DNA of 64,000 nucleotides, taken from IMG/VR virus record IMGVR_UViG_3300010280_000442, positions 1 to 64,000 of that record. The stretch is one strand, 5' to 3'. Under the pieces are notes generated by a model. The model ran no database searches and was not told the DNA's origin. It saw nothing but the letters and a program-made list of their open reading frames with translations. The position numbers and the translations under genes are program-made. Source of the DNA: a virus (taxonomy: Duplodnaviria; Heunggongvirae; Uroviricota; Caudoviricetes). Shown piece after piece: positions 21,190 through 37,287 of the stretch. Every line of letters starts with the position of its first letter. Position 1 is the stretch's first letter.

Positions 21190-24100
21190 TTACTTGAACA
21201 CCGAGCCGTCCTCATCCAGCATTTCATTGATCTTATTTGCCACCATCGACGCGAGCGCGTCATCATCCCGCACGTTGTAGCCGTTCACGGTCAGATGAAT
21301 GCCGCCCATATTGATGGTCCTTTGGTTATTGTTCGTAGTGGTCGTCGTACCGCCGCCCGCTAGTGCCAGTTCCGGCAGACGCAGGCCGTCAAGCCCCAGG
21401 CTGCCGATATCAGGCAGCCTGAATTCCGGGAAATCAAACTCCGGCAGTTCCTCAATGCCGAGACCATGCATCATCTCCCGGATCTTGCCGGTCATGGCCT
21501 TTACCTTGTCCAGCACAGAGCCGGCGTTACCGCTGATCCCCTTCGCCAGCAGGTCCATGAAGTCCGGCATATACTCATCCGCGTCAGACAGCGGCCCGGT
21601 ATCCGGCACGGAGAAATGGATCAGACTCTTGATCTTGCTCGCCAGAGATTTTGCTGCGTTGATCACCGAGCTTGCCGCTGACTTTACGCCCGCCGCCATC
21701 TGGGAACAGATATCCTTGCCCCAGCTGTATGCGGAAGACGCGAGGGAACTGAGGCTGCCAAAGCTGCTCTTGATCCCCGCAACTGCGGAAGATACCACCG
21801 ATTTCAGGCTGTTCATGGCCGACGATGTGACACTCTTCACGCTGTTCCACACTGTGGTTATGCCATTCTTGATGCCGTTCCAAACGGTAGTGGTCACGGT
21901 CTTAATACCGTTCCATGCGGAAGACACCACATTTTTAATTACCGGCAGCACAGTACTGGTTACAGACTTGATGGCATTCCATACGCTCTGTATTTCAGAC
22001 TTGATGCTCCTCCAGTGTGTTACCGTATAGGACAGGACGCTGGCCCAGCCCCCGGACACAGAAGCCGCCAGCCCCACGAGGGAACTGGAACTTGTGGATT
22101 TGATGACGTTCCAAGCTGTGCTGACGGTATTCCTGATTTTCTCCCACCCGCTGGAGGTGTCAGATGCCATCTCTGTCGTGGAGGTTTTCAGCACCTTTGC
22201 CATCTCAGAAGCAAGCTGGGTAACTTCCTGGACTACACTTCCAGAGTTGCCGCTGATCCCATCCGCTAGTAGCTGCATGAAATCCGGCATATAGGAATCT
22301 GCGTTGGAAAGCGGTCCCGTTTCCGGCACAGAGAAGCCGATGATGTCATCGATCTCGCTGGCAAGCTCCCTCGCCTGGGCAAGCACTGCTTCTTTATTTG
22401 CCGCAATTCCCGCCGCCATCTGCCTGCAGATATCTGCGCCCCAGGTGTAGGCGTCACTGACAAGGCTGGAGAAGGTGCTGCGGAAGCTCTCACTGATGGC
22501 ATTTAAGCCAGAGCTTACCGTGGTTTTCAGGCTGTTCATGCCGTTTGACACAGCGGTCTTGATCTCGCTCATGGCAGCGATCACGGTATTTTTGATACTG
22601 CTCCAGCTGGTACTGGTATTGCTGTTGACGGCAGTCCATGTGTTAGCGATGGTGTTCTTAATAACGCCCATAGCCGTAGAGTTATTATTTTTCATTGCCG
22701 TCAGGGAAGCAGTGATTGTGCTGCTGATGCTGCTCCACTGGCTTGCGGTGCTGGATTTTACCGAATCCCAGGAACTGTCTACGGCGGATTTCACCGCGTT
22801 CGCCGCCTTGGACACATTGGTCTGGATGGCACTCCAGTCCGTATCCAGGTTGCCGGTAACTGCTGACCACGCTTTCTTTGCGGAAGCCTCTACACCGTTC
22901 CATACGGAATCCAGCGCGCTTTTCATCCCGGACGCCGATGTAGTAACAGCGGACTGGATACCCTGCCAGGAGGCGGAAACGTTGCTTCGGATGTTTGCCC
23001 ATGCCATAGTTGCGGTCTGAGAGACGCTGCTCCAGACCGTTGATAGGCCGCTATTCATGCCCGTAGCGGATGTCCCCACCGTCTGCACCACAGCCTGTAC
23101 CTTCTCCGCCACAGTGGACCGGATACTCTCCCATGCGGCCGCCGTGGAAGTCTTCAGCCCGTTCCACGCCCCATCCAGCGCCGTCCCAATGCCGGAGGAT
23201 GCAGAAGTGACGGTATCCGTGATAGCGTTCCAACTTTGGGTAAAGGCCGTCTGGACACCCTGCATGGAGCTCGTAATGGCGTTTGAAAGGCTTTCCGCCA
23301 GTCCATTGGCCGCCTCGGTTACCACGGAGATATTTCCGGTGATGCCCTCTGCAAGACCATTCATAAAATCCGGCATCCAGCTTTCAAAGTCGGTAAGCGG
23401 GCCTTCATCTGGCACAGAGAAGTGAAGCACTGACCGGATTTTGTCCGCAACGCTGGTAACAGCGCTGGTCACAGAACTGATACAGGATTTGATGCCATTG
23501 ACAATACCGTTAATGATGTCGGCGCCCCAGTTGAACGCGGAGGAAGCCAGACCCTTTATATAGGAAACAGCGGAGTTAAACCCAGTCTGGATCGTGGATT
23601 TAATCCCGCTGATTTTACTGGAAACGGCACTTTTCACGCTGTCCCACATGGAGGAAACATTGGATTTAATCCCGTTCATCGCTGTGGAAACTGCGCTTTT
23701 TGCGCTGTTAAAGCCGCTGGTCACAACAGATTTGATTCCGTTTACCACTGTTGAAACAGCCGTTTTGATGCTGTTCCAGATGGAAGAAACCGTGCTCTGG
23801 ATTCCGGCCATTACAGAGGAAATCTGAGTTTTGATAGCGTTCCATGCTGTGGTCACTGTGGTCTGGATAGCGGTCAGTACCGCGGAGATCGCAGTGCTGA
23901 TGGCACCCCATGCCACCGCCAGAGCCGTCTGCAAAGCTGTCATTACAGTCGTAACCGTCGTACTGATGGCGTTCCATGCCGTGGACACAGCGGTCTGGAT
24001 GGCAGTCAAAACTGTACTTATTGCTGTGGATATGGCCGTCCACACCGTCTGCATGGTCGTCTGGATGCTCTGCAGAAGCGGCGTCAGGAAAGCAACGATG

Positions 24101-26763
24101 GCATTCCAGATTTCAGAGACTTTCGTCTGGATCGCTGTTAGCGCATTGCCGATCAGTATCTGGATCGCCTGCCAGATGGTTTCAAACAGATACCGGAATG
24201 CCTCCAGCAACGGCGAAATCGTGCTGTAGATTGCATTCCATACTGTGGTGATTGTCGTCTGGATTGCTGTCATAACGGTAGAGATCGCCGTGCTGATCGC
24301 ATTCCATACCGTGCTTACTGTTGTCTGGATTGTATTTAAAACGGCAGAGACCGCCGTGGAAATGGCTGTCCATACCGTAGAAATGGTATTCTGGATCGTA
24401 CCCATCACGGAGGTTACCGCCCCGCTGATGGCGCTCCAAATGGTTGTAAACGTGGTCTGGATGGCTGTCAATATCGTGGTAAAGAAACTGCTGACCGCAT
24501 TCCACACAGTCGTTGCAACGCTCTGGATGCCTGTAAGCACACCCGAGAAAAAGCTGCTGATGCCGTTCCAGACTCCCTCGAAGAAGGTTTTGATACTGCT
24601 CCACACACTGTTCCAATCCGTACCGAACCAGCCGAGGAATACGTCCACGACCCCCTTTAACGTATCAAGCACTGTAGACAGTGTGCTTTTAATGAATTCC
24701 CATGCGCCGGAGAATATCTGCTTCACGCCGTCCCATGCTCCCTGCCAGTCCCCGGTAAATACGCCGATAAACACAGAGAGCAGCCCGGACAGGGTGTTCA
24801 GTACCACGCTCAGCACGTTGGAGATAACCTGGAACGCCCCTTCAAAAACAGGGGCCAACACCGAGCAGAAACCGTTCCATACCGCTTTCAGCACATCGGT
24901 GACGGACTGGAAGTCAAATCCCAGCGAATTCAGCTTGTCTGTGATTTCCTGGGCAAATGTCGCAAACGTTTCCTTGATGCCGTTCCATATCTCCGTGATA
25001 GCTGTACGGAATTCTTCGTTGGTGTTCCACAGCGTCATAAACGCCGCCACCAGCGTCCCGATGACTGCCACTGCCGCTACTACCGGCGCCGATATCCCGC
25101 CGAGCGCCGCACCGAGCTTCCCAAGTAATCCGGATGTGCTTCCTACCTTTGTACCAAGCGCCGCTATTTTTGTCCCCAGGGACGCAAACGCTTTCATGGT
25201 ACTTCCTGTTACCGTGTTGATCTTTCCGAGTATGACAAGCGCCGGCCCCAGCGCAGCCACAAACAGCCCGATCTGGATAATGGTCTGTCTTGTCCCCTCA
25301 TCCATGCTGTTGAGTTTATCTACGAAAGCCTGCACCTTCTCCACCACAGATTTAACCATGGGCAGTAAAGCCTCACCAAAAGAAATAGCCAGCCCTTCTA
25401 TGGCTGACTTTAAAATGGTGATCTGTCCGTTTAGGTTATTCAGCTGGGTATCCGCCATCTGCTGGGCGGCGCCGCCGCTGTTGGTAATGGACTGCTGGAG
25501 GTCATCCCAGGTGTTGCCGGTGTTGGCAAGCAGGGCGTTTACAGAGGCAAGGTCAGTCTTATTGAAGATGGTGGAGATGATGTTGTCCTTCTCCGCCGAG
25601 GTCATCCCGTCGAGGCTGGTGTTCAGATCGCCCAGGATTTCGTTCAGGGAGCGCATGTTTCCCTCGGAATCGTATACCTGTAGTCCCAGGTCCTCCATAC
25701 AGCCCGCAGCCGTATCCGTAGGCGACTGGAGGGACAGGATCACGTTGCGCAGATGGGTGCCGCCCTCCGCCCCTTTGATGCCGTTATTGGCGAGGATACC
25801 AAGAGCCGTGTTCAGCTCCGCCGTACCACCCTTGATGGATTTCGCAGTCGCGCCGATTTTCAGGATGCCTTCGCCCAGCTGTGCAACAGAAGTATTGGTA
25901 GAAGACGCCGTTTTCGCCATTTGGTCTACCATCTTATCCGCCTCATCGGTTTCCATACCGAGGGCGGACATGGCGTCCGTCACCATATCCGATGCGGAGG
26001 CAAGGTCGATACTGCCCGCCGCCGCAAGGTTCAGGACAGTCGGGAGTGTATCCGCCATCTGCTGTGTGTCATAGCCCGCCAACGCAAGGTAATTTAATGC
26101 CTCAGCGCACTCAGACGCAGAGAACGCTGTGGTGGCGCCCATCTCCTTGGCAAGGTCAGACAGGGCGTCCATCGTGTTTACCGTCTCGCCGTTCAGCTCG
26201 GACATATCATCCGATGTGATGCCCATCGTGGCCTGCACCTGGCTCATGGCAGACTCGAAAGATGCCGCAGTTGTTACAGCAGCTGTTCCAAGGGCCGTCA
26301 CGGCGGCAGAAGCCACGGACACCTTCTTGCCCACATTGGTAATGGAAGTGCCGGCCTTTTCCAGCTTATCCCCGACTTCGGAAATCTTAAGAAGGGCAGT
26401 GTTACATTTCGCCGCCTGGGATTCCAGCGACTTTAAGGCTTCCTCCGTCGCAACGATCTCACGCTGGAGGGAATCGTACTGCTCCTGCGTGATCTCTCCC
26501 TTCTGAAGCTGCTCGTTTGCCTGTTCCGCAGCGGTCTTTAAGGTTGTGAGTTTTTCCTTTGTCGCTTCAATCTCCTGCGTCAGCAGTTTCTGCTTCTGGG
26601 TAAGGAGCTGCACATTGGTCGGGTCGAGCTTTAAGAGTTTCTCCACGTCCTTTAGCTGCGTCTGGGTGGATTTGATATTGGAATTGACATCTTTTAACGC
26701 AGACGAGAGTTTTGTGGTATCGCCGCCAATCTCGACGGTTATTCCAGCGATTCGTGAAGCCAT
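21190..26763 (-). CDS. tail tape measure protein (TMP), 1857 aa
   Basis: N-terminal coiled coil (MASRIAGITVEIGGDTTKLSSALKDVNSNIKSTQ...). Very long runs of degenerate ISTVWNAISTAVS-type repeats. Lies between the tail assembly chaperone (TAC) and Dit. Confidence 0.85.
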   Translation of the reverse strand: MASRIAGITVEIGGDTTKLSSALKDVNSNIKSTQTQLKDVEKLLKLDPTNVQLLTQKQKLLTQEIEATKEKLTTLKTAAEQANEQLQKGEITQEQYDSLQREIVATEEALKSLESQAAKCNTALLKISEVGDKLEKAGTSITNVGKKVSVASAAVTALGTAAVTTAASFESAMSQVQATMGITSDDMSELNGETVNTMDALSDLAKEMGATTAFSASECAEALNYLALAGYDTQQMADTLPTVLNLAAAGSIDLASASDMVTDAMSALGMETDEADKMVDQMAKTASSTNTSVAQLGEGILKIGATAKSIKGGTAELNTALGILANNGIKGAEGGTHLRNVILSLQSPTDTAAGCMEDLGLQVYDSEGNMRSLNEILGDLNTSLDGMTSAEKDNIISTIFNKTDLASVNALLANTGNTWDDLQQSITNSGGAAQQMADTQLNNLNGQITILKSAIEGLAISFGEALLPMVKSVVEKVQAFVDKLNSMDEGTRQTIIQIGLFVAALGPALVILGKINTVTGSTMKAFASLGTKIAALGTKVGSTSGLLGKLGAALGGISAPVVAAVAVIGTLVAAFMTLWNTNEEFRTAITEIWNGIKETFATFAQEITDKLNSLGFDFQSVTDVLKAVWNGFCSVLAPVFEGAFQVISNVLSVVLNTLSGLLSVFIGVFTGDWQGAWDGVKQIFSGAWEFIKSTLSTVLDTLKGVVDVFLGWFGTDWNSVWSSIKTFFEGVWNGISSFFSGVLTGIQSVATTVWNAVSSFFTTILTAIQTTFTTIWSAISGAVTSVMGTIQNTISTVWTAISTAVSAVLNTIQTTVSTVWNAISTAISTVMTAIQTTITTVWNAIYSTISPLLEAFRYLFETIWQAIQILIGNALTAIQTKVSEIWNAIVAFLTPLLQSIQTTMQTVWTAISTAISTVLTAIQTAVSTAWNAISTTVTTVMTALQTALAVAWGAISTAISAVLTAIQTTVTTAWNAIKTQISSVMAGIQSTVSSIWNSIKTAVSTVVNGIKSVVTSGFNSAKSAVSTAMNGIKSNVSSMWDSVKSAVSSKISGIKSTIQTGFNSAVSYIKGLASSAFNWGADIINGIVNGIKSCISSVTSAVTSVADKIRSVLHFSVPDEGPLTDFESWMPDFMNGLAEGITGNISVVTEAANGLAESLSNAITSSMQGVQTAFTQSWNAITDTVTSASSGIGTALDGAWNGLKTSTAAAWESIRSTVAEKVQAVVQTVGTSATGMNSGLSTVWSSVSQTATMAWANIRSNVSASWQGIQSAVTTSASGMKSALDSVWNGVEASAKKAWSAVTGNLDTDWSAIQTNVSKAANAVKSAVDSSWDSVKSSTASQWSSISSTITASLTAMKNNNSTAMGVIKNTIANTWTAVNSNTSTSWSSIKNTVIAAMSEIKTAVSNGMNSLKTTVSSGLNAISESFRSTFSSLVSDAYTWGADICRQMAAGIAANKEAVLAQARELASEIDDIIGFSVPETGPLSNADSYMPDFMQLLADGISGNSGSVVQEVTQLASEMAKVLKTSTTEMASDTSSGWEKIRNTVSTAWNVIKSTSSSSLVGLAASVSGGWASVLSYTVTHWRSIKSEIQSVWNAIKSVTSTVLPVIKNVVSSAWNGIKTVTTTVWNGIKNGITTVWNSVKSVTSSAMNSLKSVVSSAVAGIKSSFGSLSSLASSAYSWGKDICSQMAAGVKSAASSVINAAKSLASKIKSLIHFSVPDTGPLSDADEYMPDFMDLLAKGISGNAGSVLDKVKAMTGKIREMMHGLGIEELPEFDFPEFRLPDIGSLGLDGLRLPELALAGGGTTTTTNNNQRTINMGGIHLTVNGYNVRDDDALASMVANKINEMLDEDGSVFK

Positions 26764-26974
26764 GTCCTGAGCACCTCCTTTCCCACATGAACAAAAATAT
26801 CAAAAAGCAAACAAAACAAAATCCCGGATTCCTCCGGGATCAAACGATTTCTTGAACTATACTTCCAGATTGGCCCATAGGTGGCACGTAAAAAACACCT
26901 TCTGTACTGAATTTTTTTGCCAAAGTAGCATATAATATTTAAGGAACTATTTGTTCAGACCGGCGCAAGGGGCT

Positions 26975-27007
26975 TGACTTTTGCACTTTTTTCTGCTACA
27001 ATACGTT
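26975..27007 (+). promoter_or_regulatory. sigma70-type promoter for the Abi cassette (TTGACT-N17-TACAAT)
   Basis: CTTGACTTTTGCACTTTTTTCTGCTACAATACG, about 100 nt upstream of the Abi ATG. Confidence 0.5.
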
Positions 27008-27110
27008 CCAGTGATCAGGTTTCAGATACTCGCGAGGACTGAGACCGGGGGAGGACCTGAGGGCCCTCCTTTTTTATTTGAGTCACGAATAACTTTATGA
27101 GCGTGATAAA

Positions 27111-28043
27111 ATGTCGAAACCTTTTCTTACATACGAACAGCAAATTCAAAAGCTGACCGTAGATAAAAAACTAATAATTAATGATACTGTCTCGGCAAAG
27201 GCAGCCTTGGAAAATATCGGCTATTTTTCTCTCATTGGAGGCTATAAAACTCCTTTTATTAACCCAATGACCAGAATTTATGAACATACCGCATTTGAAG
27301 ATATTTTTGCGCTCTATACGTTTGACCGAGGTTTAAGAGAACTGACTTTCAAATATCTGTGCGAAATTGAGCAGAAAATACGTCAGCTGATTTCTTACAG
27401 TTTTTGCAGCCAGCACGGAGAACAACAAGTTTTTTATTTAACCTCTTCCTGTTATAACCTTACCAAAAAGAATACAAGAGATATCACGAAGCTCATTTCA
27501 ATTCTGGACTACCATGCGAATAAGAACACTGAACATGCGTATTTGGTTCATCAGCGTAAAGTATACAATAATGTACCTCTATGGGTTGTGATAAATGCAC
27601 TTACATTTGGACAAAGTTCTAAATTCTATAGCTTATTGCCATATAACATGCAGAGCAATATTAGCAAATCCTATGACCATATAAACGAAAAGAATTTAGA
27701 ACGTTATCTAAAAAACCTAACTCTTTTCCGCAATGTATGCGCCCACAATGAACGCCTTTATAATTTCCGTCTGCAGGTAGATTTTCCTGATACAATTCTC
27801 CACTTGAAAATGGGAATTCCTAAAGTCGGAATACAATATACACAAGGGAAACGGGACTATTTTGGCCTTGTTATCGCTTTCCGCTATCTTTTATCTAAAG
27901 AAAGCTTCAAGGATTATAAAAAATCATTAACCCGCTTAATTAATTCGTACTGTAAAACCAGTACTCGTATTTCAAAAAGTAAGCTTCTAGACACAATGGG
28001 ACTCCCTGAAAACTGGGAAAACATCACCCGATATAAACTGTAA
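27111..28043 (+). CDS. Abi (abortive infection) family protein, Abi_2 / AbiD-AbiF-like
   Basis: Conserved C-terminal FRNVCAHNERLYN motif and the general Abi_2 layout. AT-rich gene, far lower GC than the phage backbone. Opposite strand to the structural genes. Confidence 0.8.
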   Translation: MSKPFLTYEQQIQKLTVDKKLIINDTVSAKAALENIGYFSLIGGYKTPFINPMTRIYEHTAFEDIFALYTFDRGLRELTFKYLCEIEQKIRQLISYSFCSQHGEQQVFYLTSSCYNLTKKNTRDITKLISILDYHANKNTEHAYLVHQRKVYNNVPLWVVINALTFGQSSKFYSLLPYNMQSNISKSYDHINEKNLERYLKNLTLFRNVCAHNERLYNFRLQVDFPDTILHLKMGIPKVGIQYTQGKRDYFGLVIAFRYLLSKESFKDYKKSLTRLINSYCKTSTRISKSKLLDTMGLPENWENITRYKL

Positions 28044-28085
28044 CGGCACGTTGCCCCGCCCAACCAAATGAAAAAGCTGGGTGGG
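28044..28085 (+). terminator. intrinsic terminator (hairpin CCCACCC...GCTGGGTGGGG then ATTTTTC), copy 1
   Basis: Immediately after the Abi stop. The same hairpin recurs at 29059 and 30811. Confidence 0.6.
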
Positions 28086-28207
28086 GATTTTTCATGCCGT
28101 CAGAAAACGTCAAAGTCGTGCTGAGAAGCGAGATCTTTGTATGGGTAAGAATCGTTCATGCTCTCAGTGAACAGATCGTTGACCAAACCGATAGTGAGCA
28201 GATCGAG
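28050..28207 (+). repeat. direct repeat R1 (truncated, about 158 bp): copy of the 3' region downstream of the tail assembly chaperone gene, including the terminator
   Basis: Near-identical by eye to 29063-29215 and 30818-30975 (CCAACCAAATGAAAAAGCTGGGTGGGGATTTTTCATGCC...GATCGAGGTC). Confidence 0.8.
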
Positions 28208-28333
28208 GTCATAGAAATAATAAAAAAATCCTGTTAACTGCGCATAAAATATTACGACGCACTATTTCAAAATCAGTCATTCATTTGCAAAACCAACGCA
28301 ATAAATTTATCAGTTTTTTCGCTGATAAACCTG

Positions 28334-28362
28334 TTGATATTTTATAAAATTCGTGCTATACT
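28334..28362 (+). promoter_or_regulatory. promoter TTGATA-N17-TATACT with upstream palindrome TTATCAG-N9-CTGATAA (candidate Phd operator)
   Basis: Read from sequence just upstream of the phd RBS GAAAGGAG. Confidence 0.45.
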
Positions 28363-28382
28363 ATAGCCAGAGAAAGGAGTTG

Positions 28383-28712
28383 ATGATCATGGGTTCTGTT
28401 TTAAGTGCAATTACTAACACTATTCCGATTTCCCTCTTCAACCGCGGTCTTGCTGGTAAGATTTTTGAAGAAGTCAAGCAGTGCGGTGCAAAGGTTGTTA
28501 TGAAAAACAACACCGCCGAATGCGTTTTGCTTTCTCCCGATGAATATGTGCGCTTGATGGATGAAATAAATGACGCTCGCCTGCTGGCTATCGCCACTGA
28601 GCGTATGGCGCATTACGATCCTTCCACTGTCATCTCTGGTGACGAAATGAACCGCCGTCTTGGTATTACCGATGAAGACCTTGCCGGTTATGACGAGGTG
28701 GAACTCGAATGA
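28383..28712 (+). CDS. Phd/YefM-family type II antitoxin
   Basis: AKVVMKNNTAECVLLSPDEYVRLMDE matches Phd/YefM. Start at ATG 5 nt after the RBS; ATG codons at 28353 and 28389 are alternatives. 4-nt overlap with the toxin gene. Confidence 0.75.
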   Translation: MIMGSVLSAITNTIPISLFNRGLAGKIFEEVKQCGAKVVMKNNTAECVLLSPDEYVRLMDEINDARLLAIATERMAHYDPSTVISGDEMNRRLGITDEDLAGYDEVELE

Positions 28713-29044
28713 ACTGGAAACTTGCCTATCTACCTGAAGCTGAAAAAGACCTGAAAGCCCTGGATGGCAGCCAGCGCATCCTTGTCCTAAAAGCAATTAA
28801 GAAGGTTCAGCAAAACCCTCTGCCTGCCGATGAGAACGGATATGGAAAACCTCTTGGGAACCAGAACGGAACAAGTCTTGTCGGTTTTCTCAAAATCAAA
28901 CTCAAATCTGCCGGATTGCGTGTTGTTTACAAACTTCAGCGCACTGAAAATGCAATGCTCGTCATTGTAATAGGTGTCAGAGCTGATGAAGAGGTCTATG
29001 AGATTGCTCAGAAACGCTCCATTAAACACAATCTTCTTGACTGA
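28709..29044 (+). CDS. RelE/ParE-family type II toxin
   Basis: MNWKLAYLPEAEKDLKALDGSQRILVLKAIKKVQQNP...LRVVYKL...MLVIVIGVRADEEVY matches the RelE/StbE fold. ATGA overlap with phd. Confidence 0.8.
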   Translation: MNWKLAYLPEAEKDLKALDGSQRILVLKAIKKVQQNPLPADENGYGKPLGNQNGTSLVGFLKIKLKSAGLRVVYKLQRTENAMLVIVIGVRADEEVYEIAQKRSIKHNLLD

Positions 29045-29054
29045 TAAGCCAAGA

Positions 29055-29485
29055 ATTCCCCCACCCAACCAAATGAAAAAGCTGGGTGGGGATTTTTCAT
29101 GCCATCAGAAAACGTCAAAGTCATGCTGAGAAGCCAGGTCTTTGTATGGATAAGAGTCATTTATGCTCTCAGTGAACAGATCGTTGACCAAACCGATAGT
29201 GAGCAGATCGAGGTCTCGGATACTGATGCCTAACTGGACACATCGAAGCAGGAACAGCGGCGTTGTCATTTCACGCTCACTTTTGCGAGGTTTTTTTCGC
29301 ATCCACCTGCGTCTGCACGTTCAGCCCCCACAGGTCGATCAGTTCAGGAAGGATCTGATAAATACTGAAAGTATTGAACTGCTCCAGCCACTCGTCCGGC
29401 TCAGACGGTACTCCCTTGGGGTCCGCGTGCTTCGCCATGATATAAGCGATATTTTCAAAGAGCTCCAGACTGAATAGGACTTTTC
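29055..29485 (+). repeat. direct repeat R2 (about 430 bp): copy of the C-terminal ~72 codons of the tail assembly chaperone, the frameshift-extension region and the terminator
   Basis: Aligns base-for-base by eye with 30810-31235 apart from a few mismatches and a T7 run (29291-29297) where R3 has T8. Begins with terminator hairpin 29059-29098. Confidence 0.85.
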
Positions 29486-29581
29486 TTTGGACTTTTTGAA
29501 ATTAACAAGCAGAATTTCATCCGAATCATTCACTTTTTCCAATTTTATGAATTTTGCTCCTTACTATATTTTCAGAAAAAC

Positions 29582-29610
29582 TTGATTTTTTGAATTTTCT
29601 ATGCTATAAT
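29582..29610 (+). promoter_or_regulatory. promoter TTGATT-N17-TATAAT for the Fic cassette
   Basis: CTTGATTTTTTGAATTTTCTATGCTATAATTC, 50 nt upstream of RBS GGAGAAAGGAG. Confidence 0.45.
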
Positions 29611-29659
29611 TCTTTTCGTAATTTCAAGTTCCGCACTTCGGCGGAGAAAGGAGTATCAT

Positions 29660-30805
29660 ATGGAAAACCGTGCAGGTACTTTTATTAGTAACCTTTCCGG
29701 AGAAATGGCGTATAAGTCCTTTCGTCCTTCACCCTTGCCGCCCACCCCTCCTGTTGATATAGACCCTGATATGCTTGCTAAATTAATTGAAGCAAATAAA
29801 GAACTTTCTTATCTTGAAGGAGTGTCTTCCAGAATTCCGAATATTGACCTCTTTGTTTCCATGTATGTCCGCAAAGAGGCTCTGATGTCTTCCCAAATTG
29901 AAGGTACACAATGTACCTTGGATGACATTCTTGACCCTTTGATGGATGCAAATGCCAATCGAGATGTGTCTGATGTCGTCAACTATATTCGGGCTACGGA
30001 ATATGCAATAGAGAGGCTTCAAACTCTTCCTCTTTGCAACCGTTTAATCAAGGAAATACACGCTGTCCTTATGCAGGGAGTGCGTGGACAGGAAAAAAGC
30101 CCCGGTGAATTTCGCTATTCCCAAAACTGGATTGGAGGTCAGGGAAGCACGCTTAAAAATGCACGCTATATTCCCCCGAATCCGATTGACATGGTTGAGT
30201 CAATGTCTGATCTGGAGAAATATATCAACAGCGATGACACGCTTGACCCATTAATCCAAGCGGCACTTATCCATTATCAATTTGAAACAACACACCCTTT
30301 CCTGGACGGCAACGGCCGCGTTGGAAGGCTTTTAATTACACTGTTTCTGATGGAAAAGAAAATTCTTACCACTCCGGCTCTGTATATTTCTTACTACTTG
30401 AAAATGAACCGTGTAGAATACTATGACCGGATGACCCAAGTCCGCCGCACCGGTGATTACGAACAATGGATTAAATTCTTTCTGCAGGCTTTCTCGGAAT
30501 CTGCAAAAGATGCGGTTGAAACAATAAATATGCTCTCCGCACTCCATGACCAAAGCGTCTCTTCCTTTGATGATTTGTCAAAACGGCAGAGGAATTCGAT
30601 TATGAAGGTATTTACGTACCTTGAAACGAACCCAATTATTGACATTCAGAAAACTGCAACGGCTCTGAATCTTTCTTATAACACAGTTGCAAAAGCGGTT
30701 TCGATTCTGATGGATAAAGGGATTCTGTCACAGACGGACAAATCCGGTAAAGCAAAAATATATTCTTATACTGCTTACCTTGACATTCTCCGTAAAGACA
30801 CATAA
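29660..30805 (+). CDS. Fic/DOC family protein (AMPylase-type; HPFx[DE]GNGR motif) with C-terminal winged-helix
   Basis: Core Fic motif HPFLDGNGRVGR. C-terminal HTH-like region (SYNTVAKAVSILMDKGIL). Low-GC gene. Confidence 0.8.
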   Translation: MENRAGTFISNLSGEMAYKSFRPSPLPPTPPVDIDPDMLAKLIEANKELSYLEGVSSRIPNIDLFVSMYVRKEALMSSQIEGTQCTLDDILDPLMDANANRDVSDVVNYIRATEYAIERLQTLPLCNRLIKEIHAVLMQGVRGQEKSPGEFRYSQNWIGGQGSTLKNARYIPPNPIDMVESMSDLEKYINSDDTLDPLIQAALIHYQFETTHPFLDGNGRVGRLLITLFLMEKKILTTPALYISYYLKMNRVEYYDRMTQVRRTGDYEQWIKFFLQAFSESAKDAVETINMLSALHDQSVSSFDDLSKRQRNSIMKVFTYLETNPIIDIQKTATALNLSYNTVAKAVSILMDKGILSQTDKSGKAKIYSYTAYLDILRKDT

Positions 30806-30809
30806 CCAT

Positions 30810-31235
30810 TCCCCACTCAGCCAAATGAAAAAGCTGGGTGGGGATTTTTCATGCCGTCAGAAAACGTCAAAGTCGTGCTGAGAAGCGAGATCTTTGTATG
30901 GGTAAGAATCGTTCATGCTTTCTGTGAACAGGTCGTTGACCAAACCGATAGTGAGCAGATCGAGGTCTCGGATACTGATGCCTAACTGGACACACCGAAG
31001 CAGGAACAGCGGCGTTGTCATTTCACGCTCACTTTTGCGAGGTTTTTTTTCGCATCCACCTGCGTCTGCACGTTCAGCCCCCACAGGTCGATCAGTTCAG
31101 GAAGAATCTGATAAATACTGAAGGTGTTGAACTGCTCCAGCCACTCGTCCGGCTCAGACGGTACTCCCTTGGGGTCCGCGTGTTTCGCCATAATATAAGC
31201 GATATTTTCAAAGAGCTCCAGACTGAATAGGTCGA
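30810..31235 (+). repeat. direct repeat R3 (master copy, contiguous with the intact tail assembly chaperone gene)
   Basis: Same sequence as R2. Begins with terminator hairpin 30811-30850 and runs into the TAC coding sequence. Confidence 0.85.
30857..31084 (-). other. -1 programmed-frameshift extension of the tail assembly chaperone (gpGT-like), slippery run A8 (plus-strand T8 at 31042-31049)
   Basis: In the TAC frame the sequence reads GCG AAA AAA AAC (an A_AAA_AAC heptamer). The -1 frame is open for 58 further codons (KKPRKSEREMTTPLF...DFDVF) and ends just before the terminator hairpin. Confidence 0.5.
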
Positions 31236-31398
31236 GGCTGGATTCGTCCTCGTCGTTGTCACCCACACTCTTTTCCAACTGTCTCAAGTCCTTATAAATA
31301 TCTCTGCCAAATTTCAGCCGGTACATTCTCGGAACCGCCGCACTCGCACGGAACTCCACTTCCTGCCCGTCGATCTCAATCTTTTTTGTCACTGCCAT
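31018..31398 (-). CDS. tail assembly chaperone (gpG-like)
   Basis: Small acidic protein between the expected major-tail-protein position and the tape measure gene. Carries a canonical slippery site and overlapping -1 ORF at its 3' end. Start at ATG MAVTKK with RBS GGAGGA. Confidence 0.7.
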   Translation of the reverse strand: MAVTKKIEIDGQEVEFRASAAVPRMYRLKFGRDIYKDLRQLEKSVGDNDEDESSLDLFSLELFENIAYIMAKHADPKGVPSEPDEWLEQFNTFSIYQILPELIDLWGLNVQTQVDAKKNLAKVSVK

Positions 31399-31458
31399 GA
31401 TAAAATCCTCCATTTCATGTAAGGACAGGGTGCTGTCCCTGCCCTGCGTTTCTGTCCC

Positions 31459-32226
31459 TTATTCCTCAGTATCAATGCTGACCAGCGAATTGCCTCCCGT
31501 CACAGTCGGGAGCTTCCCGTCCCATTTCTGGATCTTCTGGTATTCGATCAGCTCCTCAGACAGGCTTTCCGCAATCTTACGGTTCGCCTCCGCCTGCGCA
31601 TCTGCCGTGATGGCCGCCTTCTCTGCTTCCGCTTCTGCGTTGGTGATCGCCACCCGCTTATCCGCTTCCGCCTTCGCAATCGCCGCAGCGTTCTCAATCT
31701 CCTGCTGCTGGGCCTTCTGTTGGGCGATAGACCTCTGCTGGATCGCCTCGTTGTAGGCGTCCTCAAAGTCCATGTCATTGATGGTTACCTTATTGATATA
31801 CACCGTTTCTTCGCCGTACTTCTGCTCAAGCGATGTGTTCAGCTTTTCCTGCACGAGAGGCTCGATCTTTGCACGGTTGGTGACTTCCTCCGGTCCCAGT
31901 TCCACCATTGCCGATTTGACTGCGGAGGCCACAAGGCTGTCCGTGACCAGATTTTTGGTATCAGACACATTAGCATAAATCCATACGGAACGCTCCGGCA
32001 TGATCTGGTAAGTGACCGTGATATCTGCGGCGTACACCGGGGTCTTGTCGGATGCCTCGCCCCAAACCTGCACTTCCACCGTCTTATCCTGCTGTTTGTT
32101 GTTTACCTTATGGATGCTCTCAACAAAGGGAACCGTGAAAATAAGCCTTCCGCTGGGGATGGTCTCCTCCTGGACCTGACCGAAGGAGGTCTTCACGCCG
32201 GTATACCCGGTGGGGATGATCGTCAT
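31459..32226 (-). CDS. SPFH / band-7 (prohibitin-HflK/C-like) domain protein lacking an N-terminal membrane anchor
   Basis: SPFH core (IPSGRLIFTVPFVESIHKVNNKQQ...YQIMPERSVWIYANV...) followed by an Ala/Glu-rich coiled coil (QQKAQQQEIENAAAIAKAEADKRVAITNAEAEAEKAAITADAQAEANRKIAE). Start ATG overlaps the stop of the upstream remnant (ATGA). Confidence 0.8.
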   Translation of the reverse strand: MTIIPTGYTGVKTSFGQVQEETIPSGRLIFTVPFVESIHKVNNKQQDKTVEVQVWGEASDKTPVYAADITVTYQIMPERSVWIYANVSDTKNLVTDSLVASAVKSAMVELGPEEVTNRAKIEPLVQEKLNTSLEQKYGEETVYINKVTINDMDFEDAYNEAIQQRSIAQQKAQQQEIENAAAIAKAEADKRVAITNAEAEAEKAAITADAQAEANRKIAESLSEELIEYQKIQKWDGKLPTVTGGNSLVSIDTEE

Positions 32227-32378
32227 TGATTCTCCCCGCTGGGGTCGATGGATAGTGACACGGCGCCGGGCATACGCACCGGCTTGGCGTAGGTCACATT
32301 GCCGTCATCGTCAAAGGCCGCCTTTGCGTAATGGCAGTTTTTAAGGCCGAATTTGACCTTGTTGGATTTATTAGGCAT
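32223..32378 (-). pseudogene. 51-codon N-terminal remnant of a phi13/TP901-type major tail protein
   Basis: Translation MPNKSNKVKFGLKNCHYAKAAFDDDGNVTYAKPVRMPGAVSLSIDPSGENQ resembles the conserved N-terminus of Phage_TTP_1 major tail proteins. Strong RBS AAAGGAGA. Stops after 51 codons where a tube protein of about 190 aa is expected. Confidence 0.45.
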
Positions 32379-32418
32379 AATCAAGCGTCTCCTTTCAAAA
32401 AATAATGGCCGCCTGGGA

Positions 32419-32736
32419 TCAGACGGTCATCTCATACAAAACTTCGTACATCTTTTCATCCTCGATCCACACCTCGGATTTGTGGTAGAAGATTTCATGC
32501 TCCTTCAGCACAGCCTCTACCCTTTCCTCCAATTCCGGGTCTTTGAGGTCTGTATATACCTCAATGTCCAGATTGTTGAAGGCATGGTAGACGGTATTGT
32601 CCGCCCCAAACTCCACCTCTTCCGGGTAAAGGAAGCAGACAAACGGCGGGTCCGGGCTTTCCCCCTCGGCAAAATGGTCATAGGCGTATGGGATGCCTAT
32701 CGCTTCCATCAGTGCGAGTACATCATCGTGTGTCAT
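32419..32736 (-). CDS. hypothetical tail-completion / tail-terminator-position protein
   Basis: 105-aa acidic ORF immediately upstream of the major-tail-protein position; synteny only. Confidence 0.4.
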   Translation of the reverse strand: MTHDDVLALMEAIGIPYAYDHFAEGESPDPPFVCFLYPEEVEFGADNTVYHAFNNLDIEVYTDLKDPELEERVEAVLKEHEIFYHKSEVWIEDEKMYEVLYEMTV

Positions 32737-33138: not shown

Positions 33139-33467
33139 TGGCGCACCTCCCTCCGGCAAAGGAGTTTGATCTCCTTGCGCTGGTAGTTCATCATGTCAAC
33201 AGAAGCGATATTATAGACATCTCCGTGGAAGCGGACTCGGAAGCCGGTGGATGTGATATTTTTCAATTCCGAGCAGTACCGCACGTTAAACGTAACCGTC
33301 CGTTCTTCCGTCGTTACCTCCCCGGCTTTCTCCTCCGCCTCATAGGTTGAGGCATAAGTGAAGCAGGAGAAATACTCCTCCCACTGGTTCACATGGTTGC
33401 CCACCTTATCGACCACAGTGGTGTTTTTCTCAATGGTAATTCGCTCGTTCATCCTTGCGATCTCCAT
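33135..33467 (-). CDS. head closure / head-tail adaptor (SPP1 gp16-like)
   Basis: 110 aa. Position and size fit. The ATG follows the connector gene stop with a 1-nt gap. Confidence 0.55.
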   Translation of the reverse strand: MEIARMNERITIEKNTTVVDKVGNHVNQWEEYFSCFTYASTYEAEEKAGEVTTEERTVTFNVRYCSELKNITSTGFRVRFHGDVYNIASVDMMNYQRKEIKLLCRREVRQ

Positions 33468-36171: not shown

Positions 36172-37287
36172 TCACTCATACCGCATAAAATCCTTTCCAT
36201 AGATTTCATTGCACCAATCAAAAATGCGCCCCATACCGAGCCCGGATCTACTGGGCACCCAGATCTGTCTGGGATTCCAGCATTCCTTATCGGTAAGAAG
36301 CGCATCATATTTAGGGTTTTCTATCCATTGCCCTCCGCCAATGCAGTATTCATATTGTTTTGGATGCGTATGCATTAACCTTTGGAAACGTGTTTCGCCA
36401 CGCTCCCTGTGGAAACCATACGCACAAAAAATGCACCCGGTCCGGTCACAGCCGGTACAATGAAATTTCTGATTCTTTTCATCACGTACCACTTCCCCGT
36501 ATACGGAACAGATAGGAACATTATATCGGACAATATATTCCAGCACGTCTTGCTCTGTCCAAAATGACATAGGATTGCTGATTGGCTTTTTCATATAGAA
36601 ACCATTGCACCCATTCCGAATCCACTGTTGTCTCCGCAACCTGCTTTCTGAGGCGAGTTGGCCAGTGATCGCATAACGATGTTCCTGCCGGGCATACCGA
36701 TTAGCAGGACGTTTTTTCATAGCGCTGCAGCATTGTGCAGAAATTCGGAACGGCAAATAATACAGCGGCTTCCACTTTGAAAAATCCATCTGACTCCCCG
36801 GTGACTTTACATCACCGTTCAGCCTCCTCATCCGATAAGCGTATTTTCCATTTGCCGTACTGATTCTGGCTTGGCCGATACACTCGGATACTTCTTTTCC
36901 TATAATCGGGTATCCATATACAGAAACCACATCCCGAAATGATAAACGGTCCGTGTGAAGATGACCATTTCTCTTGCCCGCCTTTCCCCACAAGGGATAG
37001 ATTGTTACCACATTCTCAAAGGATTGTGCGAACTTCCTGATCTCTGGGTATTCAAGGCCGGTATCAACAAACACAGCCGGAATGTCAGGACACGTCCTCT
37101 GGACAAGGTCGAGAAGAACCCGACTGTCCTTACCTCCACTGAAGCTCAAGTACACGCTACCGCCATAATGGAAATACCATTCTAAAATCCTTGTCTGGGT
37201 AATCATAATTTTTCTTTCAAGTGGCAGCCTTTGCAGCTCTTTCAGACGTCCCGCATCATGAATTCCGGTATCATAATCATTACTCAT
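36172..37287 (-). CDS. PAPS-reductase-family (PP-loop ATP pyrophosphatase) protein with C-terminal Cys cluster
   Basis: PP-loop SFSGGKDS. C-terminal CTGCDRTGCIFCAYG. Inserted between the portal and prohead protease genes. Confidence 0.8.
   Translation of the reverse strand: MSNDYDTGIHDAGRLKELQRLPLERKIMITQTRILEWYFHYGGSVYLSFSGGKDSRVLLDLVQRTCPDIPAVFVDTGLEYPEIRKFAQSFENVVTIYPLWGKAGKRNGHLHTDRLSFRDVVSVYGYPIIGKEVSECIGQARISTANGKYAYRMRRLNGDVKSPGSQMDFSKWKPLYYLPFRISAQCCSAMKKRPANRYARQEHRYAITGQLASESRLRRQQWIRNGCNGFYMKKPISNPMSFWTEQDVLEYIVRYNVPICSVYGEVVRDEKNQKFHCTGCDRTGCIFCAYGFHRERGETRFQRLMHTHPKQYEYCIGGGQWIENPKYDALLTDKECWNPRQIWVPSRSGLGMGRIFDWCNEIYGKDFMRYE

What the first reader, a model, noticed from the sequence alone, without database searches (positions are those of the whole stretch)
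26764..31413. Direct-repeat-structured array of three defence/addiction cassettes inserted between the tail assembly chaperone and tape measure genes
Between the tail assembly chaperone (TAC) gene (31018-31398, minus) and the tape measure gene (ends 26763, minus) there is a 4.2-kb array on the opposite strand. It contains an Abi_2-family abortive-infection gene, a Phd-RelE TA pair and a Fic-family gene. Each has its own sigma70-type promoter and is visibly AT-rich against the GC-rich phage backbone. Each cassette is followed by a copy of the same sequence (R1 28050-28207, truncated; R2 29055-29485; R3 30810-31235). That sequence is the last ~72 codons of the TAC gene, the -1 frameshift extension and a terminator hairpin (CCCCACCCAGC...GCTGGGTGGGG then ATTTTTC). 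Only R3 is contiguous with an intact TAC gene. The 5' arm of each hairpin, which is the junction with the cargo, carries a different point change in every copy, suggesting cassette junctions at the terminator stem. Two mechanisms would fit. One is serial capture of morons from related phages by recombination at the conserved TAC 3' end. The other is a repeat-bounded hotspot that allows gain and loss of cassettes by homologous recombination, loosely analogous to defence-island hotspots of P2/P4 or to integron cassette arrays. Phage structural-module hotspots are known; I am not aware of one organised by repeated TAC 3'-end segments with stacked cassettes.
Basis: seen in the sequence. Interest (0 to 1): 0.85.

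Follow-up and report, generated by a model that had tools for sequence, protein, structure and literature searches.

The report
Three stacked defence morons in a prophage
A defective gut-bacterial prophage carries three anti-phage or toxin-antitoxin gene cassettes stacked at the classic "moron" site between two tail genes, and the repeated gene fragments between them are scars of sloppy recombination between sibling phages that each carried one cassette, not a new cassette-shuffling system.

Summary
Three direct repeats (R1 28052-28210, R2 29057-29478, R3 30810-31231) of the tail-assembly-chaperone (TAC) 3' end, frameshift extension and hairpin separate three antisense cassettes: AbiD/Abi_2, Phd-RelE and SoFic-like Fic. 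Each cassette has a strong promoter-like site.

Phages with an identical TAC protein carry only one of these cassettes: Fic only, Phd-RelE only, or Abi only (99% TAC). The window is a patchwork of all three (98-100% identity per block).

The two internal junctions are non-homologous joins with 4 nt (CCTA) and 1 nt of overlap. Each links the end of one cassette, 38-70 nt before a tape-measure start, to a site inside TAC/T. Three other phage lineages have independent stacks with different scars.

The repeats are therefore by-products of unequal illegitimate crossovers, not integron-like sites. Among 181 relatives, 38 have an empty site and 143 an occupied one, with more than 25 cargo architectures. 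This position is also where the first "moron" (HK97 gene 15) was described.

The prophage is defective: a 605-bp deletion removes most of the major tail gene. In passing, I found a conserved structured RNA, absent from Rfam, in the Abi leader and in 50 of 143 occupied hotspots.

The parts
21190..26763 (-). Tape measure protein gene (1857 aa), the downstream flank of the hotspot
   Evidence: ORF. Homologous TMP N-termini follow TAC/T in 181 related loci.
26820..26841 (-). Hairpin with a T-run on the phage-sense strand, just upstream of the TMP RBS. It is backbone shared with the Fic-only relatives.
   Evidence: Terminator-like site. The same element is in L248 immediately after the Fic cassette.
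26974..27002 (+). Promoter-like site of the Abi cassette (TTGACT-17-TACAAT with TG)
   Evidence: 10/12 matches.
27006..27083 (+). Conserved structured RNA leader: an 8-bp stem P1 enclosing a conserved loop, then a terminator-like hairpin and a U-run, between the Abi promoter and the Abi start codon
   Evidence: Covariance model hit of 78.6 bits, the only one in the window. Six of 18 pairs have compensatory changes; 0/500 shuffles reach the observed values. No Rfam match.
27111..28043 (+). Abi_2 / AbiD-family abortive-infection gene (310 aa)
   Evidence: Pfam Abi_2 1.7e-45; PADLOC AbiD 3e-63. The cassette is 99.4% identical to L083.
28052..28210 (-). R1: a 157-nt copy of the T-extension 3' end plus hairpin (28054-28086). 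It is colinear with the Abi-only relative L083.
   Evidence: L251-type SNPs at 28175, 28166 and 28163; L083-type from 28157 onward.
28210..28211 (.). J1: non-homologous join (1-nt overlap, G) between the end of the TA cassette and mid-T. The break is 38 nt before the TMP ATG in the TA-only parent.
   Evidence: Nucleotide comparison with L251 and L083.
28334..28362 (+). Promoter-like site of the TA cassette (TTGATA-17-TATACT with TG)
   Evidence: 10/12 matches.
28383..28712 (+). Phd/YefM-like antitoxin (107-109 aa; start at 28383 or 28389)
   Evidence: Pfam PhdYeFM 0.002, below cutoff; PHROG antitoxin 3.9e-9. Gene call of 107 aa in L081.
28709..29044 (+). RelE/ParE-superfamily toxin (111 aa); its start overlaps the antitoxin stop (ATGA)
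   Evidence: Pfam ParE_toxin 23.3 bits against a cutoff of 23; PHROG RelE-like 1e-7.
29057..29478 (-). R2: a 422-nt pseudo-copy of the TAC 3' end, T extension and hairpin (29059-29091). It is 99.8% identical to the TA-only phage L251. Its slippery run is A7.
29475..29478 (.). J2: join at a 4-nt microhomology (CCTA) between the end of the Fic cassette and TAC codon ~61. The break is ~70 nt before the TMP ATG in the Fic-only parent.
   Evidence: Nucleotide comparison with L248 and L251. Spanned by Logan unitig L082.
29582..29610 (+). Promoter-like site of the Fic cassette (TTGATT-17-TATAAT with TG)
   Evidence: 10/12 matches.
29660..30805 (+). Fic_N + Fic + winged-HTH protein (381 aa), SoFic-like. 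It has the HPFLDGNGRVGR active-site motif and an SSQIEG inhibitory motif.
   Evidence: Pfam Fic_N 2.4e-25 and Fic 1.3e-22. PADLOC SoFic 5e-119. NCBIfam SoFic 176 bits, below its cutoff of 550. Motifs read from the translation.
30810..31231 (-). R3: the functional copy of the repeat, part of the intact TAC/T gene, with hairpin 30811-30843. It is 99.5% identical to L083.
30857..31084 (-). T extension reading frame, reached by a -1 frameshift at A AAA AAC (31042-31048)
   Evidence: ORFs; PHROG 3033 1.6e-21; frame analysis of the sequence.
31018..31413 (-). Tail assembly chaperone G ORF (131 aa, or 126 aa from 31398)
   Evidence: PHROG 709 9.8e-39. Lies between the major tail gene and TMP. Homologues abut TMP in 38 loci. 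The identical 126-aa protein is listed in 122 blocks of the collection.
31459..32226 (-). SPFH/Band_7 gene truncated at its 5' end (TM helix lost). It is itself a variable insert between the major tail and TAC genes.
   Evidence: Pfam Band_7 1.9e-16. 276 aa in relatives against 255 aa here. Deletion analysis. Absent in L045, L073, L086 and others.
32223..32384 (-). Remnant (53 aa) of the major tail protein gene. A 605-bp deletion, with its junction at about 32229, removes residues ~53-205.
   Evidence: PHROG 88, positions 14-63 of 291. Compared with L083 2953-3557; AATGA microhomology at the junction. Relatives have a 205-aa protein.

Best explanation
The TAC-TMP intergenic site of this family of Clostridia siphophages is a moron hotspot. 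Related phages carry there a single, self-transcribed cassette, usually a toxin-antitoxin, abortive-infection or defence gene. In this phage species the cargo is antisense to the tail operon. It ends 5-12 nt from a shared hairpin that terminates cargo transcripts before they run into TAC.

The window's three-cassette array arose when sibling phages carrying different cassettes recombined unequally. DNA broke just after a cassette, 38-70 nt upstream of the TMP start, and was joined without homology (1-4 nt) to a site inside the TAC/T gene of another genome. Each such event appends a second cassette and leaves a partial TAC/T copy as a scar. Ordinary homologous exchange in the conserved flanks then placed the block in an L083-like Abi backbone.

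Shown: the parents exist, the block-by-block parentage, and the junction sequences. Inferred: the order of events, the enzymes involved, and that the three cassettes are expressed from the defective prophage and protect or stabilise it in the host.
For: Survey of relatives:
- Of 181 related loci with a complete TAC..TMP, 38 have a gap of 18-196 bp and 143 carry 0.56-3.4 kb of cargo. The window's 4.09-kb gap is the largest.
- Cargo falls into more than 25 architectures. They include Phd/RelE, ParE, PIN, YoeB/RelB, ToxN, Doc, AbiEii, Abi_2, Fic, DUF3990, HEPN and SUKH.

Single-cassette parents:
- Phages with the identical 126-aa TAC carry Fic only (L248, L249, L250, L252, L255), Phd-RelE only (L251, L253) or Fic disrupted by an IS (L247, L254). 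L083, with 99% TAC identity, carries Abi only.

Block identities:
- TAC 5' 100% and R3 99.5% to L083.
- Fic cassette 98.2% to L248.
- R2 99.8% and TA cassette 99.4% to L251.
- R1 98.1% and Abi cassette 99.4% to L083.

Junctions:
- J2: '...AAAGT CCTA AACAATG...' (Fic parent) joined to '...CTCGA CCTA TTCAGT...' (TAC).
- J1: '...TTTCTAT G GGGCTTT...' (TA parent) joined to '...TATCCGA G ACCTCG...' (T).

Independent stacks with different scars:
- L158 has two scars, each the TMP RBS plus 17 codons fused to the T 3' end.
- L219, L033 and L063 have a 56-nt T remnant right after an AbiEi-like gene, followed by an L018-like Phd-ParE cassette.

Other points:
- The R1 SNP mosaic shows an additional homologous exchange inside T.
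- Promoter-like sites, hairpins and lower GC fit the moron definition (PMC3594210).
Against: - No expression or phenotype data exist. The promoters and terminators are consensus matches only, and the total number of promoter-like hits in the region is at chance level.
- The order and number of recombination events cannot be resolved.
- The 48-nt L251-type tract in R1 could be a natural T haplotype rather than an exchange.
- The array is seen only in one lineage: the window, ERZ27241765 and SRR5190122. These may come from the same or related samples, so their independence is uncertain.
- The closest Fic parent found is only 98.2% identical, so the actual donors are not in hand.
Confidence: 0.85

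Rival explanations
1. The repeated TAC 3' segments are the organising principle. They act as portable homology arms that let cassettes be gained, lost and shuffled by homologous recombination, in an integron-like array without an integrase.
For: - Direct repeats of 157-422 nt at 94-96% identity are substrates for RecA-type recombination.
- R1 switches from L251-type to L083-type SNPs between 28163 and 28157. This is consistent with a homologous crossover or gene conversion inside a repeat.
- The R3 backbone is L083-type while the adjacent Fic cassette is L248-type, so a homologous exchange occurred near the T end or hairpin.
Against: - The joins that created the repeats are non-homologous.
- Single-cassette phages have no internal repeats.
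- Stacking is rare: three other lineages among 143 occupied sites. Their scars differ in length and breakpoint.
- No variant differing by a repeat-to-repeat deletion or insertion was found. J1 and J2 are absent from IMG/VR.
- Cassettes carry their own promoters. There is no integrase or attC.
Confidence: 0.1
2. The array is a metagenome assembly chimera. It would thread three co-existing strain variants (Fic-only, TA-only, Abi-only) through their shared TAC 3' sequence.
For: - The matching public contig is a short-read MEGAHIT assembly.
- All three single-cassette variants circulate in human-gut metagenomes.
Against: - A graph chimera would join at shared k-mers. J1 and J2 share only 1 and 4 nt with their partners.
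- No TMP 5' sequence is duplicated, as a walk through the variants would require.
- The longest exact repeat is 99 nt, below k=141.
- J2 is spanned by an independent k=31 Logan unitig that ends exactly k-1 nt into each repeat.
- Two assemblies that differ by 5 SNPs share the whole structure.
Confidence: 0.03
3. Each cassette is a site-specific mobile element, transposon- or integrase-driven, that targets the terminator hairpin downstream of TAC/T and duplicates its target on insertion.
For: - All three cargo genes end 5-12 nt from the same hairpin.
- A conserved structured element is associated with the hotspot.
Against: - No transposase or recombinase is in or next to the cassettes, apart from an unrelated IS that interrupts Fic in L247 and L254.
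- The 'target duplications' would be 56-422 nt long and different each time.
- There are no terminal inverted repeats.
- Single-cassette relatives show no duplication at all.
Confidence: 0.02

Closest known systems
HK97 gene 15 moron and phage morons in general (Juhala et al. 2000; Cumby et al. 2012, PMC3594210)
   Same: [quoted passage not shown] Each is an autonomous unit with its own promoter and terminator. GC content differs from the backbone. The unit is present in some related phages and absent in others. The cargo protects the lysogen against other phages.
   Different: HK97 has one small cassette encoding a membrane superinfection-exclusion protein. Here there are three cassettes (AbiD, Phd-RelE, SoFic-like) in tandem, antisense to the tail operon, separated by partial TAC/T duplications, and carried by a defective prophage of a gut Clostridia host.
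P2/P4 defence hotspots (Rousset et al. 2022, cited in PMC10884400 and PMC11364771)
   Same: A fixed slot between conserved phage genes that holds many alternative defence or TA systems across relatives. More than 25 architectures were found here.
   Different: A different phage family and a different position. The P2/P4 hotspots are not described, to my knowledge (from memory, not tested), as containing repeated fragments of a flanking gene. The anti-phage function of the cargo here is untested.
Integron cassette arrays
   Same: A superficial resemblance: tandem cassettes separated by a repeated structured element.
   Different: There is no IntI integrase and no attC sites. The cassettes have their own promoters. 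The junctions are heterogeneous illegitimate joins, and the repeats are fragments of a structural gene.
Illegitimate-recombination model of phage mosaicism (Hendrix and colleagues; discussed for mycobacteriophages in PMC3029335)
   Same: Novel joints form at random or microhomology sites between phage genomes, and selection keeps the viable products. Homologous exchange in conserved flanks then spreads the modules.
   Different: In this case both parents and the product are in hand, so the joints can be read at nucleotide resolution. The products are unequal, so they duplicate part of TAC/T rather than simply swapping modules.
L. lactis AbiD1 leader control (Bidnenko et al. 2009; from memory, not tested here)
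   Same: An AbiD-family gene preceded by a structured mRNA leader that could keep expression low until infection.
   Different: The leader here is a distinct, conserved two-helix RNA. It also occurs 3' of TA and DUF3990 operons in the same hotspot. There is no sequence relationship or experimental link.

Membership tests
Phage moron | Extra DNA present in some but not all closely related phages at the same position | tested here: met
   38 empty and 143 occupied sites among 181 relatives. Phages with an identical TAC carry different single cassettes.
Phage moron | Own promoter and terminator | tested here: met
   The three top-scoring sigma70-like sites, each with a TG extension, lie upstream of the three cassettes. 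A hairpin plus U-run follows each cassette on the cargo strand. This is in silico evidence only.
Phage moron | Base composition different from the flanking phage genes | tested here: met
   GC 0.34-0.49 in the cassettes against 0.51-0.59 in TMP, TAC and upstream genes.
Phage moron | Expressed from the repressed prophage and beneficial to the host | not testable with these tools
   Needs RNA-seq of the lysogen and phage-challenge assays.
Defence hotspot (P2/P4 type) | Conserved flanking genes with diverse, mostly defence or TA cargo across relatives | tested here: met
   More than 25 architectures. Pfam and PADLOC hits: AbiD, SoFic, AbiEii, ToxN, PIN, YoeB/RelB, ParE, Doc, HEPN, DUF3990 and others.
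Integron-like cassette array | Site-specific integrase next to the array | tested here: not met
   The gene tables of the locus list only structural genes around the array. Neighbouring ORFs have structural-gene hits and none to a recombinase.
Integron-like cassette array | A conserved recombination site (attC-like) at every cassette boundary | tested here: not met
   J1 and J2 are unrelated sequences with 1-nt and 4-nt microhomology. Scars in other lineages are 56 to about 150 nt long with different breakpoints.
Integron-like cassette array | Promoterless cassettes read from a common promoter | tested here: not met
   Each cassette has its own strong promoter-like site.
Tail assembly chaperone G/GT | Located between the major tail protein and tape measure genes | tested here: met
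   The gene order TTERM-MTP-(SPFH)-TAC-T-TMP holds in about 180 loci, and TAC/T abuts TMP in 38 of them.
Tail assembly chaperone G/GT | Programmed -1 frameshift: a slippery heptamer near the end of G, with an overlapping extension ORF | tested here: met
   A AAA AAC at 31042-31048 (minus strand). The -1 frame continues for 54 codons to 30857, and the extension matches PHROG 3033. Frameshifting itself is not demonstrated.
Tail assembly chaperone G/GT | Sequence membership of a named TAC family | tested here: inconclusive
   No Pfam or NCBIfam hit. PHROGs 709 and 3033 are annotated 'unknown function'.
AbiD / Abi_2 abortive infection | Full-length match to the family profile | tested here: met
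   Pfam Abi_2 156 bits against a cutoff of 25.6. PADLOC AbiD 3e-63 over residues 2-307.
SoFic defence / Fic AMPylase | Fic_N + Fic domains with the HxFx(D/E)GNGRxxR motif | tested here: met
   Pfam Fic_N 88.8 bits and Fic 80.9 bits. The motif HPFLDGNGRVGR is in the translation. PADLOC SoFic 5e-119.
SoFic defence / Fic AMPylase | Reaches the NCBIfam SoFic equivalog cutoff | tested here: not met
   176.6 bits against a cutoff of 550. It is SoFic-like, not an equivalog.
Type II Phd-RelE/ParE toxin-antitoxin | Small antitoxin gene upstream of, and overlapping, a small toxin gene, both matching the family profiles | tested here: inconclusive
   The gene arrangement fits, with an ATGA overlap at 28709-28712. 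ParE_toxin scores 23.3 bits against a cutoff of 23. PhdYeFM scores 18.3 bits against 29.8, below cutoff. PHROG hits are 1e-7 and 4e-9. There is no PADLOC or NCBIfam hit.

The most novel reading that the evidence does not exclude
The TAC-TMP slot of this widespread gut Clostridia phage family is a regulated platform and not merely a passive moron site. It would consist of a shared bidirectional hairpin, a conserved structured RNA not in Rfam (found in 50 of 143 occupied sites, always on the cargo strand), and partial TAC/T copies in stacked arrays.

In this reading the RNA acts as an infection-responsive attenuator or sRNA controlling toxic cargo such as AbiD. The repeats allow further cassette exchange by homologous recombination.
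Probability: 0.2. Interest if true: 0.65.

Novelty: new member of a known kind. Interest (0 to 1): 0.4.

Why it matters
This is a rare case in which a moron stack can be reconstructed at nucleotide resolution from its three single-cassette parents. It shows directly that microhomology or blunt illegitimate joins, followed by homologous exchange in conserved flanks, build multi-defence loci in phages.

It also maps a rich hotspot in abundant human-gut Clostridia prophages (hosts include Faecalibacterium, Blautia, Ruminococcus and Lachnospiraceae). The slot holds more than 25 cargo architectures, several of unknown function, and could be mined for new defence systems.

The hotspot-associated structured RNA is an untested candidate regulator of toxic cargo.

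The finding does not reveal a new kind of genetic system. The position is the textbook moron site, and the repeats are scars.

Tried and rejected
- Megablast of the region against INPHARED phages: no match. tblastn with TAC found only relatives at 68.5% identity or less.
- IMG/VR, GTDB and metagenome relatives found with the 131-aa TAC were too divergent (70-78% DNA) to resolve the junctions. An apparent 7-nt 'CCTATTC' microhomology seen in those alignments shrank to 4 nt (CCTA) once near-identical parents were found.
- Exact 28-mers spanning J1 and J2 are absent from IMG/VR.
- The exact 131-aa TAC is not on record. The 126-aa form was needed.
- An Rfam scan of 26000-32500 at E<=1 found nothing.
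- Folding the whole Abi leader alone was not significant, z = -0.73. Only the comparative analysis showed structure.
- A simple Campbell-type model was considered: integration of a circular cassette by one crossover in T. It predicts a non-L083 3' part in R3, which is not seen, so it was rejected.
- I tested whether the RNA loop acts as an antisense to the TAC frameshift site. There is 9-nt complementarity in about 41 loci, but no co-variation and none in distant phages. The idea is not supported.
- Literature searches found no description of a TAC-TMP hotspot with TAC repeats. PMC3430355 is not held.

Full report
**1. The observation**

The region is as described.

- Three direct repeats are present: R1 28052-28210, R2 29057-29478 and R3 30810-31231.
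- R3 belongs to an intact tail-assembly-chaperone gene. The G ORF is 31018-31413. A slippery A AAA AAC lies at 31042-31048 on the minus strand. The -1 extension runs to 30857, followed 13 nt later by a hairpin at 30811-30843.
- R2 is a 422-nt fragment starting at TAC codon ~61. R1 holds only the last 157 nt.
- The hairpins fold stably on both strands but have a U-run only on the + (cargo) strand.
- Three + strand units lie between the repeats:
  - Abi_2/AbiD, 27111-28043 (Pfam 1.7e-45; PADLOC AbiD 3e-63).
  - A Phd-like/RelE-ParE-like pair, 28383-29044 (weak but consistent hits; ATGA overlap).
  - A Fic_N-Fic-wHTH protein, 29660-30805 (PADLOC SoFic 5e-119; below the NCBIfam SoFic cutoff).
- The three best promoter-like sites in the region, each 10/12 with a TG extension, sit exactly upstream of the three units.
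- Cargo GC is 0.34-0.49, against 0.51-0.59 for the flanks.

**2. Is it an artefact?**

The window matches a 390-kb MEGAHIT contig (ENA ERZ27241765) over 17 kb, including the whole array. It differs by five SNPs elsewhere, so two assemblies share the structure.

A Logan unitig from SRR5190122 equals window 29449-30850. It spans junction J2 and stops about k-1 bases into each repeat, as expected for a unique segment flanked by repeats. Another unitig from that run carries the Abi gene.

The longest exact run shared by two repeats is 99 nt. The junctions share only 1-4 nt with their partners, so a de Bruijn mis-join is implausible. Whether the three data sets come from independent samples cannot be told.

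**3. The slot is a hotspot**

The TAC protein has many hundreds of matches in IMG/VR, GTDB genomes and metagenomes (588, 298 and 553 confirmed stretches). Named hosts include Faecalibacterium, Blautia, Ruminococcus, Lachnospiraceae and Oscillospiraceae.

- In 181 loci with a complete TAC..TMP interval, the gap is 18-196 bp in 38 and 559-3444 bp in 143. The window's 4093 bp is the largest. The gene is therefore a genuine TAC that normally abuts TMP.
- The occupied sites hold more than 25 gene architectures.
- Cargo includes Phd-RelE, Phd-ParE, PIN, YoeB-RelB, ToxN, Doc, AbiEii with an AbiEi-like partner, Abi_2, Fic, DUF3990 pairs, an ATPase_2-DUF234 protein, HEPN, SUKH, HNH, ORF6N and a group II intron.
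- This is a classic moron/defence hotspot. [quoted passage not shown]

**4. The parents**

Looking up the exact 126-aa TAC found it in 122 blocks of the collection. The contexts shown were:

- Fic only: L248, L249, L250, L252, L255.
- Fic interrupted by an IS: L247, L254.
- Phd-RelE only: L251, L253.
- The triple array: only in ERZ27241765.

A MAG contig with a 99% identical TAC (L083) has Abi only.

Block-by-block identities make the window a patchwork:

| Block | Identity | Closest relative |
|---|---|---|
| TAC 5' | 100% | L083 |
| R3 | 99.5% | L083 |
| Fic cassette | 98.2% | L248 |
| R2 | 99.8% | L251 |
| TA cassette | 99.4% | L251 |
| R1 | 98.1% | L083 |
| Abi cassette | 99.4% | L083 |

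Relative to L083, the window has a clean 2.6-kb insertion (30810 down to 28211) plus a 157-bp duplication.

**5. The junctions**

With near-identical parents, the joins can be read directly.

- J2: the Fic-only parent reads ...AAAGAAAAGT-CCTA-AACAATGCATCCCGG..., continuing to the TMP RBS about 70 nt on. TAC reads ...CTCGA-CCTA-TTCAGTCTGG.... The window reads ...AAAGAAAAGT-CCTA-TTCAGTCTGG.... This is a crossover in 4 nt of microhomology.
- J1: the TA-only parent reads ...TTTCTAT-G-GGGCTTTTTAAAGCC..., 38 nt before the TMP ATG. T reads ...TATCCGA-G-ACCTCGATC.... The window reads ...TTTCTAT-G-ACCTCGATC.... This is a 1-nt overlap.

Both are illegitimate joins between the TMP-proximal end of one cassette and an internal TAC/T site of another genome. 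That is an unequal crossover, which necessarily duplicates the TAC/T 3' end.

**6. The hairpin**

The hairpin is not the junction. Its cargo-side arm in R1 is identical to L083's and in R2 to L251's. In R3 it is the L248 type with two private SNPs. Cassette-specific sequence starts right after the arm, and the cargo stop codons lie 5-12 nt away. The "point changes" are lineage markers.

**7. Recurrence**

Three other lineages show independent stacks.

- L158 (a Ruminococcus MAG; TAC 68% identical) has PIN-antitoxin, a 101-aa ORF and a SUKH protein. They are separated by two scars, each the TMP RBS plus the first ~17 codons fused to ~150 nt of the T 3' end. There the upstream break fell inside TMP.
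- L219, L033 and L063 have a 56-nt T remnant directly after an AbiEi-like gene, followed by an L018-like Phd-ParE cassette. There the break fell inside a cargo operon.

Scar lengths of 56, about 150, 157 and 422 nt, with varied breakpoints, argue against any site-specific process. Stacks are rare, at three lineages among 143 occupied sites.

**8. Homologous exchange also contributed**

R1 carries L251-type bases at 28175, 28166 and 28163 and L083-type bases from 28157 on. R3 is L083-type up to the hairpin but is followed by an L248-type cassette.

So conserved T sequence did serve as a crossover site. I found no variant that differs by repeat-to-repeat gain or loss, and J1 and J2 are absent from IMG/VR.

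**9. State of the prophage**

Compared with L083 and the other close relatives, the window lacks 605 bp (L083 2953-3557). The major tail protein is cut to 53 of 205 residues and is fused, at an AATGA microhomology, to an SPFH gene that has lost its transmembrane helix. The same deletion is in the ENA contig.

The prophage cannot make tails. The array sits in a decaying element in which packaging and expression constraints on the tail operon are relaxed.

**10. How it most likely works**

Inferred: in the lysogen, each cassette is transcribed from its own sigma-A-type promoter on the strand opposite to the late genes, and is terminated at the shared hairpin. AbiD and the SoFic-like protein would then act against superinfecting phages. 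The Phd-RelE pair would act as an addiction or abortive-infection module.

Shown: gene content, promoter and terminator motifs, parentage and junctions. Not shown: expression and phenotype.

**11. Side finding**

The Abi leader (27006-27083) is almost invariant in Abi cassettes whose proteins are only about 60% identical.

- Pattern and covariance-model searches found the same element in 50 of 143 occupied hotspots. It is always inside the gap and always on the cargo strand. It occurs either as the 5' leader of Abi_2 or a Phd-like gene, or 3' of RelE or DUF3990 operons just before the terminator. It is present even in phages with only 51-65% TAC identity.
- The consensus is an 8-bp stem enclosing a conserved CUUGCGAGG loop, followed by a 10-bp terminator-like hairpin and a U-tract.
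- Six of 18 pairs show compensatory changes and 99.7% of cells are paired. No shuffle out of 500 reaches the observed values on four of the five measures (2 of 500 on further pair types), and the slid controls collapse.
- It is not in Rfam 15.
- A 9-nt complementarity of the loop to the TAC frameshift site does not co-vary, so it is left unexplained.

**12. Verdict**

This is a new, well-documented member of a known kind, namely morons at the TAC-TMP site, with an unusually legible history. It also brings a family-wide hotspot catalogue and a candidate new RNA motif.

Noticed in passing
window 27006-27083 (+); also L002 8624-8703 (-), L032 4400-4479 (-), L258 3432-3511 (+), L274 5743-5822 (-): A conserved structured RNA not in Rfam: an 8-bp stem enclosing a CUUGCGAGG loop, then a terminator-like hairpin and U-tract. 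It occurs in 50 of 143 occupied TAC-TMP hotspots, always on the cargo strand. It is either the 5' leader of Abi_2 or Phd-like genes, or lies 3' of RelE or DUF3990 operons. Six of 18 pairs show compensatory changes. It may be an attenuator or sRNA controlling toxic cargo.
   Followed up: partly
window 32223-32384 and 31459-32226 (junction about 32229): A 605-bp deletion relative to L083 and all close relatives truncates the major tail protein to 53 aa and removes the TM helix of the adjacent SPFH/Band_7 gene. The junction has an AATGA microhomology. The prophage is therefore defective for tail formation.
   Followed up: yes
window 31459-32226; L045, L073 and L086 lack it: The SPFH/Band_7 gene lies between the major tail protein and TAC genes in most close relatives but is absent in others. 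It looks like a second, same-strand variable insert in the tail operon.
   Followed up: partly
window 36172-37287 (-): A PAPS-reductase-family gene (371 aa) sits between the portal and ClpP-type prohead protease genes in the window and L246. In L248-L250 an 85-aa ORF occupies that position, and in L247 there is nothing. This is another variable slot. PAPS-reductase morons are reported in Burkholderia phages (PMC2920897).
   Followed up: no
L247 8639-10171; L254 3755-5287: In two otherwise Fic-only relatives with an identical TAC, the SoFic-like gene is split by an IS encoding a 510-aa DDE_Tnp_1 transposase. This is natural inactivation of the defence gene.
   Followed up: no
L063 10578-11867: A group II intron reverse transcriptase/maturase (RVT_1 + GIIM) has inserted into the hotspot of a stacked AbiEi-like / Phd-ParE array.
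   Followed up: no
window 29292-29298 (R2) versus 31043-31050 (R3): The pseudo-copy R2 has seven A/T in the slippery run where the functional copy has eight, so its G' and T' frames are offset by +1 instead of -1. The TA-only phage L251 matches R2 at every variable column of the alignment, the run-length column included, so the A7 state may be native to that lineage.
   Followed up: partly
P1 loop of the RNA motif versus TAC mRNA just 3' of the slippery site (e.g. L002, L022, L038): A 9-nt perfect complementarity (UUGCGAGGU / ACCUCGCAA) holds in about 41 loci. It drops to 5-6 nt in others, the window included, and to 3-4 nt in distant phages that keep the loop. There is no co-variation, so its significance is unclear.
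   Followed up: partly
window 33279-33357: The five SNPs that distinguish the window from ENA contig k141_92506 are clustered in 79 bp of a head-tail connector gene. This suggests a strain-variant bubble or a short recombination patch.
   Followed up: no
window 26820-26841 (-): A terminator-like hairpin with a T-run on the phage-sense strand lies between the cargo and the TMP RBS. It is shared with the Fic-only relatives but not the TA-only ones, and is absent from empty sites. It could attenuate TMP transcription or insulate the cassette.
   Followed up: no
L100 (Blautia UMGS412), L101, L152: Odd arrangements in relatives. L100 has a second T fragment and a TMP start about 4 kb upstream of TAC. 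L101 has an inverted TMP-start/Fic segment upstream of TAC. L152 has two major-tail N-terminal hits. These may be further rearrangements or misassemblies.
   Followed up: no
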